From the sequence record NC_041869.1: 64,000 nt of DNA. One strand, given 5' to 3'. A program made the position numbers and the translations under genes. The first letter of the stretch is position 1. Every line of letters starts with the position of its first letter. Shown in pieces: positions 10,946 through 36,330 of the stretch. Below the pieces are notes generated by a model, which did no database searches, was not told the origin of the DNA, and saw nothing but the letters and a program-made list of their open reading frames with translations. The stretch comes from Escherichia phage APECc02.

Positions 10946-13369
10946 ATGAGTATGTGGTCTTTCGATTTTGAGTCATCCGGTTTGCTGGAAGACCCAGATC
11001 TTTATTATCACTGCGGTCTGTTTAAAGAGCTGAATAAGAACCGTTTTATGCTGTTCCTTCCTCTAAATGACCGCACACACTACTCCGAGGAGGATATAGA
11101 AAAGGCTAAGAACTTCATTCTGGCAAAGAAAACTCTTTATAAAGATTTTGAAGTTCGCATAGCAGATTTTTCGGAGTTGGAAGGTTGGCTTACAGGCAAT
11201 TCTGACTGGTCACCAACAGCTTTGAACTGCCATAACTGCTACAGTTATGACTTTATGCTAATGGAAAGATTATCCGGTATTCATTTTGATATGTTCCGTG
11301 ATCCTAAATGCATGGGGACTATCAACGACCACCAGGTTAATCTGTTTGATACGTTGGCTATGAGCCGAATATTGTGGCCTGATCGCCCTTTACCAAAAGG
11401 TTGTCCGGACGCTGTATTCAACCCGGTTACTAAGAAAATGCAACCTGTTGGTCCTCACGGCCTTATGGCATGGGGCTACGCCCTTGGTAACCAGAAAGTT
11501 CAAATTGATGACTGGCGCGATCTTCCGCTGTGGAAATATGTGGATCGTGTGTTCGAGGACGTTATCATCCAGGAGTTGCTCTGGAAAGAGCTGGTAGCGG
11601 AATCAAAAGGTGTATTCTACGGCAAATCTGACATGCAGAACTTTATGTACGATCCAGCCAAAGAGAAGCCGAAAGGGTTCAAGAAAATCACCTGGAAGAA
11701 CGCATTACGCCGAGGCATGCTGCAGCACTTCCTGATGGAGCTGCAGGCCCGTCAGGGTGTGTATTTCGACATAGATGGGGCTATTGCTTTACGTGACCGT
11801 TGCGATGCGTGGATGAAAGAGATCGCTGATCGTGTTGAACCTCAACTTCCTTTAAAAGAGTTGTCAATGTCTCAGCGGCCCAAGTTCCCTGAAAAGCCGT
11901 TTAACCAAGACGGGACAATCTCCAATAATGGTTGGAAATGGTTAAAAGATAAGCTTGGCTATCCTGTAGACATGAGCGCTTTAGAATTCAAAGCCCCGCC
12001 TAAGCGAGCATTTACCTCCACAGGAGATGTCAGCAAGATGGGGATAAAATGGTGCGAAGAGATGGGCTGCAAAGACCCCGACAAGATGGCTGATTTCTTG
12101 AGAGGTTATATTAAGGGCACCTCCACACCACAACCTTTACCTAAAGAGCTGATGGATCAGGCAATAAGTGATCTGCAGCAGAAGCGAATGCCTGACTGCA
12201 AGATACCTATGAAAATCAGCAATCAGGACGACATTAAGCGATACCTGATCAGTGCTGGTTGGCTTCCGACAATGTGGAGAACTAAGGATGTAACTAAGGA
12301 CAGCAAGAAGAAAGCTCTACCTGATGCAGATGTTGATGCACGAGTATATGCATACATGGACGAGCTTTTAGAGTCAGAGTATTGTGACCTAATTATCAAC
12401 TTCTGGAACAAAACTGATGCTAAGTTTCAGACAACAGTGCACAAGTTCCGAAGCTTTCCTAACTCCGAAAGGATTAAAAAGGAAGTGTTCGGGAAAATAC
12501 GCAGAAAAGCCAGGGCACTTATTACTTCTCCGCAACTGAAAGATACGTTTGGACACCTATGTCCGAATCTTGAAAAATTGAACGGAGAGATGGCTAAAGA
12601 TATCGTCTTGTGGTTATCATTGCGAAACCGCAGATCGGTCCTTGATCCAATCAAGGAGGATAAGGTTGATACTGGTCTTCTTAATCACCCACGTTTGAAG
12701 ATTGACCATAAGCTTCCTGCTAAAAGCTCTGGATTAACAAACACTTCCCGACAGAAACACAGTATTTGTGCAAACATGCCTAAACCATCTCCTAAAGTGG
12801 TTATGGGTAAAGAGATGCGTAGCTTGTGGGGTGTTCCTCCTGGATACTTTGAGATCGGTATTGACGGGTCCAACTTGGAGCAGCTTATCGGGGCTTGGGG
12901 TGCCTTTGAGTTCGACAACGGCTTGTACTATGATGTTGTAAGTAACGGGGACGCACACCAAAACAATGCTGAGGCATATACAAAAGTAGCAGGCAGAGAG
13001 GTGTCTCGTAACGACGGTAAACCTATCACGTATGGGGTTATGTACGGGGCACAAAAAGATAAAGTTGCAGATATGCTGGATATCTCCCCAGAGTTGGGGC
13101 AAAGGGTGATCGATGCACTTTGGGATGCCAACCCCGGTCTTAAGGGGCGCAAAGAGGATCTGGAGAAATTCTGGGAAGCAACAGGTAAGAAGTTTATCTA
13201 CTCTTTTGATGGTCATGCTATCTGGACCCGATCTAAACACTCTTTACTTAATGCATACCAACAAAATGGTGGTGCATCGCTGTGTGACTTAGTTGGGATA
13301 CTCATGCACCACCAAATGGTGAAGCGTGGGTGGTACGATGAAGGTGTCCGTCGTATTATCTATTACCAT
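10946..13369 (+). CDS. DNA polymerase family A, exon 1 (3'-5' exonuclease and polymerase motifs A and B)
   Basis: Exo I FDFESSG at N-terminus, motif A GIDGSNLEQ, motif B KPITYGVMYGAQ; RBS AAGGAG; track ORF runs 6 nt further to an in-frame TAA that I place inside the intron. Confidence 0.8.
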
Positions 13370-14211
13370 AAATAACATTGTGGCTTCGTGCAGTGATGCA
13401 CGTCGAAAACCTCTTTAATTGACGGGAAGGCTAAGTTGACTTTTACACCTGAACATGGTAAAAGCTCAATATGCTAATCCGCAGCGAAGACTAAAGGGGT
13501 GTAGTTAAAATGGCTAGATCAGCTGATTATCACGGGTATACCGTGTTTGATGATGGAACAATACCTTTATCGAAACGTGATCATACAACAATGTTTTGTT
13601 TTGATAATGGTAGAGGTTACCTTTGCGTAACCATGCTCATCGAGGGGAAGCAGTGCACAAAAGGTGTCCACCACTTGGTTGCTGAATGCTTTGTACCGAA
13701 CCCTGATCCTGAAAAGCTCACATGGGTGAACCATAAGGATGGAAATAAGTACAACAATGCACACTGGAACCTGGAATGGACTACCCCTGGTGGAAATATC
13801 AAACACGCCTACGATAATGAACTCAGAGTAAGGCCAGTCGGTGAGTATAATGCCAACGCTGTGCTGACCGAGGATGAGGTAACGGAGATTTGCGAACTGT
13901 TGCAGAGTGGTCTACGACAATGCGAGATTAGGGATCTTGGGTATCCTTATGAGACGGTCAGAGCCATAAAGCAAAGAAGACAGTGGAAACATATCTCTAA
14001 AAACTACACCTGGTAGTAACGTTCAGAGACTATCGAAAGCATAGCTCCAACATAGTTTGGTGTGAAGAAGCGAGTAGAGTAGGCCAGCAAGTGCGGTCGA
14101 AATGAGAGGTGCCTTGGTAACAAGGTAATGAGATAGTCCGATCCATACAGGAAACCGTATGGCTGTGCACGTAATGGTGCGGGGTAGCTTAACGACCTAC
14201 CTGAACTATTG
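13370..14211 (+). mobile_element. group I self-splicing intron with embedded HNH homing endonuclease ORF
   Basis: P1 pairing CCAU(13366-13369)/GUGG(13380-13383) with U.G at 5' splice site; conserved P-like AATTGACGGGAAGG (13417-13430), Q AATCCGCAGC (13476-13485), R GTTCAGAGACTA (14021-14032), S AGATAGTCCG (14131-14140); terminal G at 14211. Confidence 0.7.
13510..14016 (+). CDS. HNH homing endonuclease (intron-encoded)
   Basis: motifs VHHLVAECF and VNHKDGNKYNNAHWNLEW; lies between intron Q and R elements. Confidence 0.75.
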   Translation: MARSADYHGYTVFDDGTIPLSKRDHTTMFCFDNGRGYLCVTMLIEGKQCTKGVHHLVAECFVPNPDPEKLTWVNHKDGNKYNNAHWNLEWTTPGGNIKHAYDNELRVRPVGEYNANAVLTEDEVTEICELLQSGLRQCEIRDLGYPYETVRAIKQRRQWKHISKNYTW

Positions 14212-14565
14212 GATGAGTACCAACTTCAGGTCCCTGACACGCCTAAGTATAAGACTGTGTACACCTTCGACACAATTGAAGAGCTGGAAGCATTTAAGGC
14301 AGAGCAGGAAGCCAAACTTCATGTGTTCGACGGTCATAAGTACAAAAAGGCACGCAAGGATGAAGACGGAAACGAAGTGGTTGACAGAGACGGAAACACG
14401 GTGTACGATCCTATCCTGAACGATGACGGAAAGCTTGAACTTATCTGGAGCCCTGTGGGTGAAATGGTGGTGCATTGCTTCTGGCAAGCTTCTAAAATGA
14501 TGGGCGTCCCGTTCCAGATCACAGGTGAATACCTGTGTGGTCGTAATTGGGGTGATTGTCACTAA
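14212..14565 (+). CDS. DNA polymerase family A, exon 2 (motif C and C-terminus)
   Basis: predicted splice junction gives ...IIYYH|DEYQLQV, restoring the HDE motif C; C-terminus GRNWGDCH matches the PolA terminal NW...H; track ORF begins at in-frame TTG 14209. Confidence 0.7.
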   Translation, partial: DEYQLQVPDTPKYKTVYTFDTIEELEAFKAEQEAKLHVFDGHKYKKARKDEDGNEVVDRDGNTVYDPILNDDGKLELIWSPVGEMVVHCFWQASKMMGVPFQITGEYLCGRNWGDCH

Positions 14566-19015: not shown

Positions 19016-19031
19016 CATCTAGTTAACATAG

Positions 19032-19058
19032 CCCTGCCCGAAAGGGTGGGGCATTTTT
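19032..19058 (+). terminator. rho-independent terminator
   Basis: same CCCTGCCC-GAAA-GGGTGGGG hairpin as at 8011, followed by T-run. Confidence 0.65.
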
Positions 19059-19590: not shown

Positions 19591-19788
19591 ATGATTTATC
19601 GAATCCGTGTAAGAGAAGATGCACCAGGCTGTTACTTTGACTGGCGTGGGTGGTGGTTTATCCACCCAATGGATGGACTCACAGATAGAATGCTGGATGC
19701 TGCCCTTTACACAGATACCGACATAGAATATAATCTCTATCTGAAGGACGGTATAGATAACGGCCTGTTTGAAGCAATTCCTGTGTAA
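19591..19788 (+). CDS. hypothetical protein
   Basis: 65-aa ORF with AGGAGG RBS. Confidence 0.45.
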   Translation: MIYRIRVREDAPGCYFDWRGWWFIHPMDGLTDRMLDAALYTDTDIEYNLYLKDGIDNGLFEAIPV

Positions 19789-19856: not shown

Positions 19857-20282
19857 ATGATCTATGAAATGCCAAAACTGATTCGTGACGATGCCCAAAA
19901 CGCTCACACCATTATTATGGGCAAACGCATGGATATTATTTGTCATAAAGATTTCTGGGAAGGAAGTTACTTCACAGAGTATTTTGGTAAACTGGACAAT
20001 GGTCTGCTGATCCAGTTCTACACCGATGCGGAAAACAACATTCCCTGGGAGTTCGAAACTGAAGATGTCCATAAACTTTTCACCTTCCTCGGTATTAAGG
20101 TTAAGGCCAAGTTTGAAGAAGGTGAGTGCGACGATTGTGGATTTTATGAGGTAACAGATTTCTACCTTCCTAGCGGTAAGAACCTTTACTATGAAAGCCA
20201 CTTCGGTAACTCCAATATGCCACAGTGCTGGACTGAGTTTTTTGAAATTGCGGAAGAGGAGCTGGCTTACCGTGATTATTGA
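19857..20282 (+). CDS. hypothetical protein
   Basis: 141-aa ORF with AGGAGA RBS. Confidence 0.5.
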   Translation: MIYEMPKLIRDDAQNAHTIIMGKRMDIICHKDFWEGSYFTEYFGKLDNGLLIQFYTDAENNIPWEFETEDVHKLFTFLGIKVKAKFEEGECDDCGFYEVTDFYLPSGKNLYYESHFGNSNMPQCWTEFFEIAEEELAYRDY

Positions 20283-20730
20283 TACTGTAGAGGGAGATTT
20301 AATCTCCCTTTTTAAGAGCGGTGCTGGTCACCTGATCCACGGTTGTAACTGCTTCCACACAATGGGCAAGGGTATAGCAAAACAGATTGCCCGTGAGTTT
20401 CCTCAAGCACTGTCAGCCGACAAAGAGACTAGATACGGTTGCCTAAGTAAACTGGGTGCGTTATCCCGATGGGAGCACTTATCTCCGATAGGTATTGTCT
20501 ACGGAATCAATCTATATACCCAGTTCTACCCAGGACCTAATGCTGAGTATTTCTCAATCCTGAAAGGCTTTGAGCTAGTCAATGAAGTATTCAGCGGATC
20601 GACTTTACCATTCTACATCCCTAAGATCGGGTGCGGCATAGGCGGTTTGAAGTGGGAACACGTAGAGGACGTTATTAACCTTGCCACTTTCGACATAGAT
20701 ATTGTCGTGGTGGAGTACAAAAAGTGTTGA
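20272..20730 (+). CDS. macro-domain protein (putative ADP-ribose binding/hydrolase)
   Basis: motifs GDLISLF, HLIHGCNCFHTMGKGIAKQIAREF and IPKIGCGIGGL fit the macro-domain signature; probable GTG start at 20272 with GAGGAG 10 nt upstream (track ORF 20191..20730). Confidence 0.6.
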   Translation: MIIDTVEGDLISLFKSGAGHLIHGCNCFHTMGKGIAKQIAREFPQALSADKETRYGCLSKLGALSRWEHLSPIGIVYGINLYTQFYPGPNAEYFSILKGFELVNEVFSGSTLPFYIPKIGCGIGGLKWEHVEDVINLATFDIDIVVVEYKKC

Positions 20731-20981: not shown

Positions 20982-21176
20982 ATGAGAAACAAGAAAGAAC
21001 TTTACTCCGGTGAGTGGATCAACGATCAACAGGTGGGAGAGGTAACCTGCTTCCGATGTTTTACCAGGTACAATCTTAAAACTGCACCAAAAAGTGTTCC
21101 AAAGACTGACGGTTACTACATAAAAGAACCTCATTGCCCAAAATGTAAATGCCGATTGTACTGGAGCAATCTGTAA
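20982..21176 (+). CDS. small zinc-ribbon protein
   Basis: CFRCF and CPKCKC pairs; ATG after GGGAGAGAA; track ORF 20925..21176 trimmed. Confidence 0.45.
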   Translation: MRNKKELYSGEWINDQQVGEVTCFRCFTRYNLKTAPKSVPKTDGYYIKEPHCPKCKCRLYWSNL

Positions 21177-33420: not shown

Positions 33421-34028
33421 TCTCCTCTTTTCCTACCACAAATGGCCCCGCCTGGCAAATGGAATAATCAACAAGCCAGCAATTAACCCCACTGTACAAA
33501 CATACATATAAAATAACTATTGCATAATTTTTCATTGTGTGGTAGCAGGGCCATTTTTACACGTTTTTCCTTCCAAAATTGCACGTAATGCAGCATTTGC
33601 ACAAAATTTAACCTGATGCATATCTTCAATAGCTTGTCAACAACTAAAAATCTTTATAAGTCATACACTTACATAACTACAAAAGCGTTTTCTACGTGAA
33701 AAATCGAGTATAACTATAGCCGCCAGATCTCAGAATTTACGTACGCTCGCCATTCTATAGCCTGCTAAGCATTTATTCCAACCATAGAATAACGGAATAG
33801 TCAATACCTGCATAAAATAATTATTCGTGTAAACTGCATAACATAAATCGGCCCAGGTGTCAACATTTTTCGTAAACAGTCTGGAATTGTCACGTTAGGT
33901 TACCATAAGCAGAGAAATCTTTAGTCGTCTAATGTTTACTGTACGTTACTATACTAACTGAAATCATTAGATGACTAATAGAAAGATAAGAAATAATTAA
34001 CAATACAATTATTTTATCTGTAACAATA

Positions 34029-34205
34029 AGGCAACTATGCAAACGAATGGCATGGCGCGACGGAGTCGCGACATAATATAAAAGCAGTAACCATCACCCC
34101 CGTGATAGTTTGTCTGCAAACTATTAATCAGATCATAGTTGCCTTGTATTTAGTTAATCATGACATAACAAGCAAGGCAACTATAGATCTGCTAATAGTT
34201 GCCCT
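34029..34205. repeat. four copies of 11-mer AAGGCAACTAT in alternating orientation (candidate protein-binding sites)
   Basis: plus-orientation at 34029 and 34174, inverted at 34136 and 34195; 34135-34146/34173-34184 form a 12-bp perfect inverted repeat 26 bp apart. Confidence 0.6.
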
Positions 34206-34317
34206 GCTTTTATATTATGTCATAGAAACACCCGAAGGGGTGACCAAAGGTTACCTGGCATAGCCAGTGAAAGATTATTAACTTGCTAATCTTTATCATG
34301 CAAACGAATGGCATGGC
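34037..34317. repeat. 20-bp perfect direct repeat ATGCAAACGAATGGCATGGC
   Basis: copies at 34037-34056 and 34298-34317. Confidence 0.65.
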
Positions 34318-34338
34318 TTATCATTTCTGTGTAAATAG

Positions 34339-34390
34339 TCTATGCGTAAACTGTCAAGGCGTAAACAATCTATGCGTGAACAGTGAAACA
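34339..34390. repeat. short direct repeats TCTATGCGT(A/G)AAC and GCGTAAAC
   Basis: TCTATGCGTAAAC at 34339, GGCGTAAACA at 34359, TCTATGCGTGAAC at 34369. Confidence 0.5.
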
Positions 34391-34423
34391 TGAAATAATA
34401 ACAGTTGTTATTGTGTCATATTG

Positions 34424-34505
34424 TGCTGCAGCGTGTTGAGTATGTTTAAGGTGCCCAGTATGTCACCATTATGTCACTATTGTGTCATAGTGTCATAGTA
34501 TGTCA
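34424..34505. repeat. iteron-like array of TGTCA(C/T) pentamers at about 10-11 bp phasing
   Basis: TGTCA at 34424, 34461, 34472, 34483, 34491, 34501 (plus 34362, 34525). Confidence 0.6.
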
Positions 34506-35083
34506 GACAAGTTTTTCCCCTCTTTGTCAAGTGCTGCATGAAAAAATTTACAAGCTGGTATGGTAGCATTTTTGCGGCCTTGTTTACATTCAGTAATGTA
34601 TGTATAACCCTTGATGTGTGGGCGTTTAGACGTCTAGACGGTCAGAAGTCTGCAGGTCAATATCTAATCTATTGGCTGCTAACTATATCCCCCACAAATA
34701 ATAAGAAATATAATTGTTATGTGCGTAAACAGTAACTCATGTTATCAATCCCTGTATGGATCGCCAGTGGTGCGCATAATGGGTATTATGTTAAATTGCC
34801 CGTAATGATAACTATTCTCACAATGATAGGTATTCTCATTCACCCCCACAAGATAGGTTGCAAATGTTGTGCCACTGTGTGAACGGCCTAGCCTATTAAT
34901 TTGCCTCACTGCCTTGATATTTGAGAATTGTTATAAGAATGAGAAGTATTCCCATTTCGTCCGCCTGGCAGCACTCCTGTAGGTCCTGCAAGGACTCTAG
35001 CTGAAAGCTAGACCCTTCGGGCCTCCCTGTAGGTCAGGTCAAAATCGTGGTAGAATTGGGCCTGTTCAGATATTTCTGGCTGA

Positions 35084-35643
35084 CTCTTCAGGTCTGTGTG
35101 GGAAAAGCCAACCTCTCCGGCGGGGCAGGGGGTCATGACGGGAAAATTGCAGGTCAATTAAAAAATTTACGTGGTGTATGAAGCGCTCTTCAGGTAAGGC
35201 ATGTATTATGGGATGAAACCCTCTTCAGGCAATGATATTTGTGGGTGTGATATTTGCTGGAAAGCCAGATATGACGGGACTCCCGGCGGGGCAGGGGTAG
35301 TACAGACAGGGAAAATATGAGAATGTAGTTGGGGAAATTGATCAGACAGGTAGAGTATGGAATATGTTACAAGTATGTTAAATATGGAGGTTGAATATCT
35401 GTAGGATTTGTGTGTAAAATCAAAGACTTAAGGGGTGTTGTGGTATTTTCTATAAATAATTCAAGTTTAATAGGCAATATTTGTCTCTATCCGCTTTGTG
35501 TGGTAAACAGATTCAGATTAGATTGGTTTACAAGTGTATACATAATATACAAATTAAAGATACAAGAAACCCCCCTCCCCCCTTCGGCTACCATTCACCT
35601 TTTCCTCTGACTGGTACTTAAACACTTATTCAGACTCTTCAGG
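35084..35643. repeat. dispersed direct repeats CTCTTCAGG (x4), CCGGCGGGGCAGGGG (x2), CCTGTAGGTC (x2)
   Basis: CTCTTCAGG at 35084, 35186, 35221, 35635; CCGGCGGGGCAGGGG at 35117 and 35283, each followed by G-rich GGGAAAAT. Confidence 0.55.
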
Positions 35644-35993
35644 TTATCACCCATATATCATATGGCAGTGACTGGTGTCCTCCGGCCCCTCTTTCGTCAC
35701 CCGTCCGCTTCGCCATGCTAATGCCATAGCTAATGGTTCGGTTGTTCACCCTGTTCACTCAGGTGTATCTCTATACCCCTTCAAACCGAAGAGAACAGAA
35801 AACCCGAATTACTCGGTAAAAGAAAAGAGAAGAACTTAATTTTATCAGGATAGGCAAGAATGTCAAGGCATGACTGCTCACTAAACAAGCAAACAGTCAT
35901 GTGTGGGAGGTAAGTGATTGTGGTGGTAGGAAATTTAGTTGAAAGATGTGTTATAGGTGCTTCCAGCACTTTAGCCGGGCAGCTAATTGTGTG

Positions 35994-36209
35994 TCAGTCC
36001 AGCGGTTCATCCTCTACTTCACTGAAATCAATGTTCATGGTCTCTTCCCAACCATCGATCTCAGCACAAGAGTGGAGTTCTTTAGGGTTTACTCCCAAAG
36101 CCTCAGCAACAGAGTCTATATTTAACACCTCTGGCAGGTATGATTCATCGAATTCAAGGTAAATCAGGCCACGAGTGTTGTCAGCTCCACCAAATATCTC
36201 TATCTTCAT
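35994..36209 (-). CDS. hypothetical small acidic protein
   Basis: 71-aa ORF, last gene of minus-strand block. Confidence 0.5.
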   Translation of the reverse strand: MKIEIFGGADNTRGLIYLEFDESYLPEVLNIDSVAEALGVNPKELHSCAEIDGWEETMNIDFSEVEDEPLD

Positions 36210-36330
36210 AAAATCTCCTCTGGGAATGAAAGTGTGAACAGGGTTTTATACGTTCTAATGCACAGGAATTATACACGTTTGCCTCTTCAGGCCATGCTTC
36301 AGCATGAGGAACCTGTGTGGGCTCGGTGCT

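What the first reader, a model, noticed from the sequence alone, without database searches (positions are those of the whole stretch)
20272..20730. Macro-domain protein in the replication module (possible counter to ADP-ribosylation-based defence)
The product has the macro-domain signature (GDL..LF, H.IHGCNCF..MGKGIA..IA..F, G.GIGG). Macro domains bind or remove ADP-ribose, so a phage copy is a plausible antagonist of DarT-like DNA ADP-ribosylation or of NAD-derived signalling, though a purely metabolic role cannot be excluded.
Basis: partly seen in the sequence, partly recalled or inferred. Interest (0 to 1): 0.55.

Follow-up and report, generated by a model that had tools for sequence, protein, structure and literature searches.

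The report
Phage macrodomain, likely anti-DarT2 enzyme
This rV5-like coliphage gene encodes a small ADP-ribose-handling (macro) enzyme that belongs to the same family as phage T4's Tk.4/AdfM, which was recently shown to protect T4 from the DNA-ADP-ribosylating DarTG2 defence, so it is a sound but unsurprising new member of a known counter-defence family.

Summary
Window 20272-20730 (+, GTG start) encodes a 152-aa stand-alone macrodomain: Pfam Macro is above its threshold, the AlphaFold2 model has pLDDT 96.5, and the best folds are TARG1, Poa1p and DarG. The window is a Vequintavirus (rV5-like coliphage), and near-identical GenBank genomes already call this gene "macro domain protein".

The protein shares PHROG 335 with T4 Tk.4 (39% identity over the full length). 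A 69%-identical copy occupies the vs–tk.4–tk slot of the T4-like phage GEC-3S. A 2025 preprint names Tk.4 AdfM and shows that T4 needs it to resist DarTG2.

The active site keeps DarG's Asn22 (here N26). It has an invariant Gln84 where DarG and TARG1 have the catalytic Lys. SCO6735, which cleaves thymidine-linked ADP-ribose from DNA, has the same substitution.

The main rival is Adpp, the ADPR-1''-phosphate phosphatase of NARP1-AP operons (35% identity). No Adps or Namat gene exists in the window or in a complete sister genome, which weakens this rival.

The MaxBurger (Bas54) orthologue is dispensable on E. coli K-12, and natural disrupted alleles exist, as expected for an accessory counter-defence gene.

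It is a new member of a known kind, of moderate-to-low interest.

The parts
20272..20730 (+). Gene for a 152-aa stand-alone macrodomain protein of the Tk.4/AdfM type (PHROG 335); GTG start, TGA stop.
   Evidence: ORF and sequence. Pfam Macro above its threshold. PHROG 335 at 4.8e-59. 39% identity to T4 Tk.4. 69% identity to GEC-3S Tk.4. AF2 pLDDT 96.5. Fold matches to TARG1, Poa1p and DarG. dN/dS about 0.1.
20347..20349 (+). Codon AAC for Asn26, in the motif HGCNCF. It is invariant in the family and aligns with DarG Asn22 and PhiKZ AdfM Asn23 (ADP-ribose site; mutating it reduces PhiKZ AdfM activity).
   Evidence: Invariant column. Alignment to the DarG chains. The role of N22/N23 is taken from PMC13309987.
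20521..20523 (+). Codon CAG for Gln84, in the motif NLYTQF. It is invariant in the family and occupies the position of the catalytic Lys80 of DarG and Lys84 of TARG1. This is the position of the essential Gln85 of SCO6735.
   Evidence: Invariant column. Profile alignments to DarG and TARG1. The equivalence and the Q85A loss of activity are taken from PMC9411070.
20629..20646 (+). Gly-rich loop GCGIGG (residues 120-125), the diphosphate-binding loop typical of macrodomains. Gly124 sits where TARG1 has the catalytic Asp125.
20256..20261 (+). GAGGAG Shine-Dalgarno-like sequence, 10 nt upstream of the GTG start and inside the end of the upstream ORF.
   Evidence: Read directly from the sequence.
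19857..20282 (+). Upstream 141-aa ORF of unknown function (PHROG 8157, no Pfam hit). Its stop overlaps the macro start by 11 nt, so the two are probably co-transcribed and translationally coupled. The linkage is not conserved in more distant relatives, so it is probably not a functional partner.
   Evidence: The gene order differs in L011 and L012.
19706..19734 (+). Sigma-70-like promoter match (TTTACA-17-TATAAT, 11 of 12), the nearest one upstream of the 19857/20272 gene pair. It is a consensus match only.
19031..19052 (+). Terminator-like GC-rich hairpin followed by a T-run. It separates this block of small genes from the genes nearer the DNA polymerase.
   Evidence: A terminator is annotated at the matching place in HdK5.

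Best explanation
The gene encodes an orphan, single-domain ADP-ribosyl glycohydrolase of the ALC1-like macrodomain class, an orthologue-level relative of phage T4 Tk.4 (AdfM).

Proposed mechanism:
- It is expressed from the block of small accessory genes downstream of the replication genes.
- It binds ADP-ribose attached to N3 of thymidine in single-stranded phage DNA. The host toxin DarT2 (DarTG2 system) puts that mark there.
- It hydrolyses the ribose C1''–base bond. This releases ADP-ribose and restores a template that the phage polymerase can copy, so DarTG2 no longer aborts replication.
- Catalysis probably does not use the Lys of DarG and TARG1. It probably uses the Gln-based, water-activating mechanism described for Streptomyces SCO6735 (Gln84 here), with Asn26 and the GCGIGG loop holding the ADP-ribose.

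Shown here: macrodomain identity, fold, family membership, active-site residue pattern, purifying selection, and absence of NARP1 partner genes.

Shown by others for homologues:
- The T4 protein is needed against DarTG2.
- A Gln-type macrodomain cleaves dT-ADP-ribose.
- The MaxBurger (Bas54) orthologue is dispensable on K-12.

Inferred: that this Vequintavirus protein has the same substrate and the same protective effect.
For: Identity as a macrodomain:
- Pfam Macro is above its gathering score.
- The model has pLDDT 96.5.
- The top solved folds are TARG1, Poa1p and the DarG macrodomains, all at probability 1.0.
- The best single-sequence PDB hit is the M. tuberculosis DarG macrodomain 5m3i (entry identity).
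- The DarG models of NCBIfam and PADLOC match over the macro part.

Relationship to T4 Tk.4:
- The window protein is in the same PHROG 335 as T4 Tk.4.
- It is 39% identical end to end (E 1e-40).
- GEC-3S, a T4-like Krischvirus, carries a 69%-identical copy exactly in the vs–tk.4–tk slot. The window protein therefore lies within the diversity of positional Tk.4 orthologues.
- 37 of the 80 nearest IMG/VR loci have T4 tk and/or vs homologues beside the macro gene.

Function of relatives:
- T4 Tk.4/AdfM was the single significant HIDEN-SEQ hit on a DarTG2 host, and its knockout sensitises T4 to DarTG2.
- Gln84 aligns with DarG K80 and TARG1 K84.
- SCO6735 has Gln85 at that position, cleaves thymidine-linked ADP-ribose on DNA, and loses all activity as Q85A.
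- Asn26 corresponds to the DarG N22 / PhiKZ AdfM N23 active-site residue.

Accessory-gene behaviour:
- dN/dS is about 0.1 between two deeply diverged allele classes.
- The MaxBurger orthologue bas54_0092 (82% identity) tolerated insertions at 31 of 31 sites on K-12.
- Natural truncated, frameshifted or fused alleles occur; two of them (P0017, P0051) are on ~135-kb contigs.

The target system exists in the host species: DarTG occurs in E. coli (EPEC; PMC7003065, listed).
Against: - No Vequintavirus has been tested against DarTG2, and I found no such data.
- The T4 result is genetic and comes from a preprint. No Tk.4-type protein has been assayed on ADP-ribosylated DNA.
- At 39% identity, substrate specificity can differ.
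- The same family contains Adpp, a biochemically proven ADPR-1''-phosphate phosphatase (35% identity to the window protein). The motif pattern (HxCNC, YxQ, GCGxxG) does not separate the two activities.
- The catalytic Lys that defines DarG and TARG1 chemistry is absent.
- Profile scores do not place the family nearer to DarG than to TARG1, BT1257, SCO6735 or Poa1p (56-67 bits for all).
- The protein lacks DarG's DarT-binding domain, so any neutralisation by binding the toxin would have to come from the macrodomain itself. (SCO6735 showed such an effect.)
Confidence: 0.6

Rival explanations
1. It is an Adpp-type ADP-ribose-1''-phosphate phosphatase. RES-domain defences (aRES) split NAD+ into nicotinamide and ADPR-1''-phosphate. 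The macrodomain would remove the 1''-phosphate so that ADPR can be recycled to NAD+, or so that a harmful metabolite is cleared.
For: - Vibrio phage Gary Adpp is a macrodomain that converts ADPR-1P to ADPR and is needed for NARP1-AP to beat aRES.
- Its 95%-identical orthologue in phage Pontus is 35% identical to the window protein (E about 1e-20). It shares the HxCNCF, YxQ and GCGxxG motifs.
- GenBank, CDD and PHROG label the family 'phosphatase / Poa1p-like'.
- The window protein matches yeast Poa1p, including His23.
Against: - Adpp works only as part of an Adps–Adpp–Namat operon.
- tblastn with Pontus Adps and Namat finds nothing in the window or in the complete genome of CarlMeissner, whose macro protein is 98.7% identical (best E 0.3). 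No such genes are annotated there.
- Only 1 of the 80 closest IMG/VR loci has Adps and Namat within 5 kb, and there they lie six genes away.
- The window protein scores higher to T4 Tk.4 (121 bits) than to Adpp (71 bits). It also lacks the 7-residue insertion after the YxQ motif seen in Adpp.
Confidence: 0.12
2. It reverses ADP-ribosylation of protein or RNA rather than DNA. Possible targets are marks written by other defence ADP-ribosyltransferases (such as the mRNA-modifying CmdTAC), by host enzymes, or by the phage's own NAD-using enzymes.
For: - The closest solved folds include TARG1, a protein (Glu/Asp) de-ADP-ribosylase.
- SCO6735 acts on both protein and DNA substrates.
- Defence by mRNA ADP-ribosylation exists (PMC11618068, listed).
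- Vequintaviruses encode a sirtuin-domain protein (bas48_0215) outside the window.
Against: - In T4, the only condition reported to make tk.4 required was DarTG2.
- T4 tk.4 was not reported among the genes conditionally required on the clinical isolates.
- There is no ADP-ribosyltransferase or sirtuin gene next to the macro gene, and the neighbours have no Pfam hits.
- Sirtuin-linked macrodomains belong to a different (Zn-Macro/MacroD) class according to PMC11490716 (listed; not read).
Confidence: 0.15
3. It is a non-catalytic binder (sponge) for ADP-ribose-derived molecules, such as Thoeris-type signals.
For: - Macrodomains bind ADP-ribose derivatives.
- The catalytic Lys and Asp of TARG1 are missing.
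Against: - The residues that are invariant across 63 homologues (N26, Q84, G-loops) are the ones needed for catalysis in SCO6735, DarG and PhiKZ AdfM.
- Related family members are proven enzymes.
- No known sponge belongs to this family.
Confidence: 0.04
4. It has a housekeeping metabolic role unrelated to defence. Examples are clearing O-acetyl-ADP-ribose or ADP-ribose-1''-phosphate produced by phage sirtuin or RNA-repair enzymes.
For: - Vequintaviruses encode a sirtuin-domain protein, an RNA ligase and a polynucleotide kinase.
- Some databases name relatives 'O-acetyl-ADP-ribose deacetylase'.
Against: - Those genes lie about 50 kb away and are not linked to the macro gene.
- The gene is fully dispensable on K-12 and is lost in some natural genomes.
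- T4-type RNA repair does not generate ADPR-1''-phosphate (established knowledge of the Pnkp/Rnl pathway; not tested here).
Confidence: 0.06

Closest known systems
Phage T4 Tk.4 = AdfM (anti-DarT factor Macrodomain; Humolli et al., bioRxiv 10.1101/2025.11.20.689424)
   Same: - Same PHROG 335, same length (152 vs 155 aa), and 39% identity end to end.
- Same motifs: HGCNCFHTMG, NLYTQF-PGPN-EY and IGxGIG, with Gln at the DarG-Lys position.
- Stand-alone macrodomain in a block of small non-essential genes.
- Dispensable on K-12.
- A 69%-identical copy sits in the tk.4 slot of the T4-like phage GEC-3S.

   Different: - Different phage family (Vequintavirinae vs Straboviridae) and different neighbours (no vs or tk genes).
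- 61% of residues differ.
- The window protein has Lys33 (MGKGIA, as in DarG) where T4 has Ser.
- Protection against DarTG2 is shown only for T4.
PhiKZ gp104 = AdfM of chimalliviruses (PMC13309987)
   Same: Orphan phage macrodomain of similar size, proposed to have the same job. It removes DarT2-made ADP-ribose from DNA, and the Asn of the active site is conserved.
   Different: - Only about 20% identity (pairwise E 7e-5).
- It keeps the DarG-type catalytic Lys (FPTK, K78) where the window protein has Gln84.
- It is imported into the phage nucleus.
- It is a separate lineage that happens to share the name AdfM.
Adpp, the ADPR-1''-phosphate phosphatase of NARP1-AP operons (Vibrio phage Gary; bioRxiv 10.64898/2026.01.28.702374)
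   Same: Homologous macrodomain, 35% identical to the Pontus orthologue, with the same HxCNCF / YxQ / GCGxxG pattern and the same 'phosphatase / Poa1p-like' database label.
   Different: - Adpp is embedded between Adps and Namat and works only with them. This phage has neither.
- Adpp has a 7-residue insertion after the YxQ motif.
- Its substrate is a small molecule, not DNA.
Streptomyces coelicolor SCO6735 (PDB 5e3b; PMC9411070)
   Same: - ALC1-like macrodomain lacking the Lys/Asp of TARG1 and the Lys of DarG, with an essential Gln at that position.
- Cleaves thymidine-linked ADP-ribose from DNA and protects against DarT.
- Detected by sequence (E 6.8e-5 single sequence, 3e-15 with the profile) and by fold.
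   Different: - Bacterial, DNA-damage-regulated protein.
- About 20% identity.
- It has a longer mobile loop with extra Lys residues.
DarG antitoxin of DarTG2 (T. aquaticus and M. tuberculosis; PDB 5m31/5m3e/5m3i)
   Same: Its macrodomain is the best sequence match among solved structures. It has the same fold and the same Asn.
   Different: - DarG is about 340 aa with a C-terminal DarT-binding domain, and it is encoded next to darT.
- The window protein is the macrodomain alone. It scores 47.6 against a cut-off of 250 on the DarG equivalog model.
- It has Gln instead of Lys80 and has no darT neighbour.

Membership tests
Macro domain superfamily (Pfam PF01661) | The profile HMM match reaches the curated gathering score. 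| tested here: met
   28 bits against a cut-off of 22, E 2.2e-6.
Macro domain superfamily (Pfam PF01661) | Three-layer alpha/beta/alpha macro fold. | tested here: met
   The AF2 model has pLDDT 96.5. Foldseek probability is 1.0 with TM 0.72-0.78 to TARG1, Poa1p and DarG.
Macro domain superfamily (Pfam PF01661) | Binds ADP-ribose. | not testable with these tools
   Only the conserved Asn26 and the Gly-rich loops are seen. A binding assay is needed.
ALC1-like class, Lys-type (TARG1, DarG) | Catalytic Lys (TARG1 K84 / DarG K80). | tested here: not met
   Gln84 aligns with that Lys and is invariant in 63 homologues. Gly124 aligns with TARG1 Asp125.
ALC1-like class, Gln-type (SCO6735-like) | Gln at the TARG1-K84 / DarG-K80 position, with neither Lys nor Asp of the dyad. 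| tested here: met
   One search gives the alignment. PMC9411070 states that Gln85 of SCO6735 is the equivalent position. The window protein was not aligned residue by residue to 5e3b, so the equivalence is transitive.
DarG antitoxin (NCBIfam NF048014 equivalog) | The full-length model score reaches the cut-off (250 bits), which requires the macro domain plus the DarT-binding C-terminal domain. | tested here: not met
   47.6 bits, aligned only to model positions 3-141 of 338. The protein is 152 aa.
DarG antitoxin (NCBIfam NF048014 equivalog) | Encoded in an operon with a darT toxin gene. | tested here: not met
   The neighbouring ORFs have no Pfam hits and belong to phage-only PHROGs of unknown function.
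AdfM, T4 Tk.4 type | Sequence membership in the same protein family as T4 Tk.4 over the full length. | tested here: met
   Both are in PHROG 335 at the same profile positions. Identity is 39%, E 1e-40. GEC-3S has a 69%-identical copy in the tk.4 slot.
AdfM, T4 Tk.4 type | Required for phage growth on DarTG2-expressing hosts and dispensable otherwise. | not testable with these tools
   Only the dispensability half is known: bas54_0092 (82% identical) is non-essential on K-12.
AdfM, PhiKZ gp104 type | Close sequence relationship and the DarG-like FPTK catalytic Lys. | tested here: not met
   20% identity, E 7e-5. Gln replaces the Lys.
Adpp of NARP1-AP | Homologous macrodomain. | tested here: met
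   35% identity to Pontus gp172, which is 95% identical to Gary Adpp.
Adpp of NARP1-AP | Encoded with Adps and Namat (within two genes of a NARP1 pair). | tested here: not met
   There is no Adps or Namat homologue in the window or in the complete CarlMeissner genome, and none is annotated.
Adpp of NARP1-AP | Hydrolyses ADPR-1''-phosphate to ADPR. | not testable with these tools
   An enzyme assay is needed. The sequence motifs do not exclude this activity.

The most novel reading that the evidence does not exclude
The Tk.4/PHROG-335 macrodomains, including this one, may be a distinct Gln-type enzyme class. One active site would cleave any good leaving group at the ribose C1'' position. That would cover both thymine in DarT2-modified DNA and phosphate in the ADPR-1''-phosphate made by RES-type NAD+ phosphorylases. 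A single 150-aa phage protein would then serve two otherwise unrelated counter-defence roles (AdfM and Adpp), using a water-activating mechanism unlike that of the DarG antitoxin it is said to mimic. On this view the family descends from stand-alone Poa1p/BT1257/SCO6735-like enzymes, not from a captured antitoxin.
Probability: 0.25. Interest if true: 0.55.

Novelty: new member of a known kind. Interest (0 to 1): 0.35.

Why it matters
If the assignment is right, rV5-like coliphages carry a ready-made answer to DarTG2. These phages are widely considered for therapy and for biocontrol of E. coli O157. The same would apply to the other phages that hold a homologue: 2,777 phage records in the collection searched had a tblastn match at E ≤ 1e-3. 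That helps predict which host defence systems will or will not restrict these phages.

The finding also exposes an open biochemical question. The two experimentally studied relatives in the family, T4 AdfM and Vibrio-phage Adpp, have been given different substrates. Yet they share one active-site pattern, built around a Gln where the DarG antitoxin has its catalytic Lys. The Vequintavirus protein has no NARP1 partners, so it is a clean test case for asking which activity, or both, the stand-alone enzymes have.

Tried and rejected
- **Captured DarG antitoxin.** Rejected as membership. Only the macro part matches (47.6 vs 250 bits), the catalytic Lys is replaced, and there is no darT neighbour.
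- **Same lineage as PhiKZ AdfM.** Rejected: 20% identity and a different catalytic residue.
- **NARP1-AP component.** Searched for Adps and Namat in the window, in a complete sister genome and in 80 related IMG/VR loci. They are absent, except for one loosely linked case.
- **Functional two-gene module with the overlapping upstream ORF 19857-20282.** Rejected. That ORF has no detectable domain, and the gene order is not kept in more distant Vequintavirinae-like contigs.
- **Discrimination between DarG-, TARG1-, SCO6735-, BT1257- and Poa1p-likeness by profile score.** Inconclusive: all score 56-67 bits.
- **Residue-level alignment to Poa1p around Gln84, sought through a second PDB search with Adpp.** Nothing useful came of it.
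- **Literature search for any DarTG2 test on Vequintavirinae.** None found.
- **Alternative start at ATG 20191.** Rejected: it overlaps the upstream ORF, and the homologues start at the GTG position.
Full report
**1. What is in the sequence**

Window 20272-20730 (+ strand) is an open reading frame of 152 codons. It starts with GTG and ends with TGA.

The GTG start is supported by four observations:
- A GAGGAG lies ten bases upstream.
- The start overlaps the stop of the upstream ORF 19857-20282 by 11 nt.
- The N-termini of homologues coincide with it (T4 Tk.4 starts MIVKYIKGDIV). The start codon is conserved as GTG or ATG in eight related alleles.
- GenBank annotates the same coordinates in relatives.

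**2. Where the window comes from**

The window is a Vequintavirus, an rV5-like myovirus of E. coli. It is 99.8% identical over 4 kb to Escherichia phages naswa and magaca, and 99.5% to HdK5 and CarlMeissner/Bas48.

Several of these records already call the gene "macro domain protein", "phosphatase" or "Poa1p-like family protein". Others leave it hypothetical.

The window opens with rIIA, rIIB, a helicase, methyltransferases, a primase-helicase and a DNA polymerase. The macro gene lies about 5.7 kb past the polymerase gene. It sits beyond a strong terminator-like hairpin at 19031-19052 and behind sigma-70-like promoter matches. It is one of roughly sixty small co-directional ORFs of unknown function. 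"In the replication module" is therefore only loosely true. The setting is the kind of accessory-gene array where phages keep counter-defence genes.

**3. Is it a real macrodomain?**

Yes, on every test:
- Pfam Macro scores above its gathering threshold.
- PHROG 335 matches at 4.8e-59.
- The DarG models of NCBIfam and PADLOC match the macro part at about 1e-12 to 1e-13.
- A profile of 63 homologues finds the DarG, BT1257, TARG1, SCO6735 and Poa1p macrodomains in the PDB at 1e-14 to 1e-17.
- AlphaFold2 with that alignment gives pLDDT 96.5 and pTM 0.91.
- Foldseek returns TARG1, Poa1p and DarG first, all at probability 1.0.
- Among viral models it finds a Marseillevirus SNF2-linked macrodomain and the Tk.4 protein of Acinetobacter phage 133.

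The gene is under purifying selection. Two allele classes within the genus differ at dS of about 1.1, yet dN/dS is about 0.1.

**4. Closest characterised relatives**

*a. T4 Tk.4.* It is in the same PHROG, at the same profile positions, and is 39% identical over the full length. The T4-like Krischvirus GEC-3S carries a copy 69% identical to the window protein, exactly between vs and tk, which is the tk.4 slot. 37 of the 80 nearest IMG/VR loci have T4 tk and/or vs homologues beside the macro gene. The window protein therefore falls within the diversity of positional Tk.4 orthologues, and the gene has evidently moved between the two phage groups.

A November 2025 preprint reports three things about tk.4. 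It was the only T4 gene depleted in a transposon library grown on a DarTG2 host. A clean knockout sensitises T4 to DarTG2. The gene is named adfM.

*b. PhiKZ gp104.* It is also named AdfM, and it removes DarT2-made ADP-ribose from DNA in vitro. It is only about 20% identical to the window protein and keeps the DarG-type Lys. It is a separate lineage.

*c. Adpp.* This is the macrodomain between Adps and Namat in NARP1-AP operons of Vibrio phages. It converts ADPR-1''-phosphate, the product of the RES-type defence aRES, into ADPR. The Pontus orthologue, 95% identical to the assayed Gary protein, is 35% identical to the window protein.

**5. Active site**

Across 63 homologues the invariant residues are G24, N26, G34, A36, N80, Q84, P117 and G120.
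- N26 aligns with DarG N22 and PhiKZ AdfM N23.
- Q84 aligns with the catalytic Lys of DarG (K80) and TARG1 (K84).
- G124 aligns with TARG1 D125.

The Lys-based chemistry of DarG and TARG1 is therefore not available. The same replacement is documented for Streptomyces SCO6735. Its Gln85 occupies that position, Q85A abolishes activity, and the enzyme cleaves thymidine-linked ADP-ribose on DNA and protects against DarT.

T4 Tk.4, GEC-3S Tk.4, Adpp and a NARP1-neighbouring homologue (L073) all share the Gln. One metagenomic variant (L013) has Lys there. The motif thus supports catalytic competence on C1''-linked substrates, but it does not tell the DNA role from the phosphatase role.

**6. Weighing the two roles**

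Adpp is useful only with Adps and Namat. tblastn with both proteins finds nothing in the window or in the complete genome of CarlMeissner (best E 0.3). None is annotated there. Only one of the 80 closest loci has them within 5 kb, and there they are six genes away.

The window protein is closer to Tk.4 (121 bits) than to Adpp (71 bits). It also lacks Adpp's 7-residue insertion after the YxQ motif.

The MaxBurger/Bas54 orthologue (82% identical) took insertions at 31 of 31 sites and was scored non-essential on E. coli K-12. Natural genomes carry a fusion-deletion, an internal deletion and frameshifted alleles; two of them lie on ~135-kb contigs. This is the behaviour of a conditionally useful accessory gene.

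I therefore put the anti-DarT2 glycohydrolase reading at about 0.6. I put the stand-alone Adpp reading at about 0.12. Action on protein or RNA ADP-ribosylation gets about 0.15. The remainder is split between a binder-only role and housekeeping roles.

**7. What is shown and what is inferred**

Shown here:
- gene, fold and family;
- residue pattern;
- purifying selection;
- lack of NARP1 partners;
- lack of a DarT-binding domain and of a darT neighbour.

Shown by others for relatives:
- the T4 phenotype;
- SCO6735 chemistry;
- PhiKZ AdfM chemistry;
- Adpp chemistry;
- dispensability of the Bas54 orthologue.

Inferred: that this protein removes ADP-ribose from thymidine in phage ssDNA and thereby defeats DarTG2.

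No test of DarTG2 on a Vequintavirus was found. According to PMC11825919, NADAR-type anti-DarTG1 proteins in the BASEL Vequintavirinae were found only in Bas60-62. This phage group would then have the macro-type factor but not the NADAR-type one.

**8. Novelty and score**

This is a new, untested member of a known counter-defence family, and near-identical public genomes already annotate it as a macrodomain. A specialist would not be surprised.

Some interest remains because AdfM and Adpp share one Gln-type active site that differs from DarG's. That leaves open a bifunctional or mechanistically distinct enzyme class.

Interest is 0.35. The novel reading has probability about 0.25 and would deserve interest of about 0.55 if true.

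Noticed in passing
window 10946-14562 (insert 13370-14211; HNH ORF 13510-14016): The DNA polymerase gene is split. Residues 1-808 are encoded at 10946-13369 and residues 809-925 at 14212-14562. An 842-bp insertion, absent from CarlMeissner, separates them. The insertion matches the Rfam group I intron model over its full length (41.1 bits, E 8.9e-9, below the gathering score of 50). It carries an HNH-type endonuclease ORF. It is probably a mobile group I intron in the polymerase gene.
   Followed up: partly
P0017, P0018, P0034 and P0051 (homologues found; P0017 and P0051 on ~135-kb contigs): Naturally disrupted alleles of the macro gene exist. One is a fusion of the N-terminus of the upstream ORF to the C-terminal half of the macrodomain (a deletion at a shared 'QFY'). 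One is an internal deletion, and two are frameshifts. The gene is evidently lost now and then in nature.
   Followed up: partly
window 20272-20730 compared with L090 (MaxBurger), L003 (bov10K2) and L010: Two deeply diverged allele classes of the macro gene circulate within Vequintavirus (82% protein identity, dS about 1.1). In the related contig L010 the macro gene and several adjacent small ORFs are more diverged (70-88% protein identity) than other flanking genes (94-97%). This points to allele exchange by recombination at this locus.
   Followed up: partly
L091 (GEC-3S, NC_025425.1 50402-50857) and L013: The T4-like Krischvirus GEC-3S carries an rV5-type macro allele (69% identity, against 39% for T4 Tk.4) in the vs–tk.4–tk slot. 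This implies horizontal exchange between Vequintavirinae and Straboviridae. The related metagenomic contig L013 has Lys instead of the otherwise invariant Gln84 (YTKF).
   Followed up: partly
window about 33500-36300: An ORF-poor region of about 2.5 kb lies where the + strand and − strand gene blocks converge. It is unannotated in CarlMeissner (91796-94281). GC drops to 0.33 at 33500-34000 and GC skew changes sign. Three tandem 15-nt GCGTAAAC-type repeats lie at 34331-34387, with a fourth copy at 34710, and there are several inverted repeats around 34020-34220. It could be a replication origin or a regulatory region. No tRNA gene is present anywhere in the window.
   Followed up: partly
window 1-25000 versus the GenBank phage records: Sixteen GenBank records named 'Campylobacter phage' (for example C12, A147, C5; host Campylobacter jejuni; no annotation) are about 95-96% identical to this E. 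coli Vequintavirus over 25 kb. They look like mislabelled or contaminant coliphage genomes.
   Followed up: no
window 20984-21176 (+): A small ORF of about 64 aa with two CxxC pairs (zinc-ribbon-like) lies two genes downstream of the macro gene. It has a 42%-identical homologue immediately downstream of the macro gene in the T4-like contig L013. It is the only neighbour that seems to travel with the macro gene. Function unknown.
   Followed up: no
CarlMeissner (MZ501054.1) 130351-133476, outside the window: The sister genome encodes a sirtuin-domain protein next to an RNA ligase, a polynucleotide kinase and a phosphoesterase. These are further NAD/ADP-ribose- and RNA-repair-related accessory genes that may interact functionally with the macrodomain or with host defences.
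   Followed up: no
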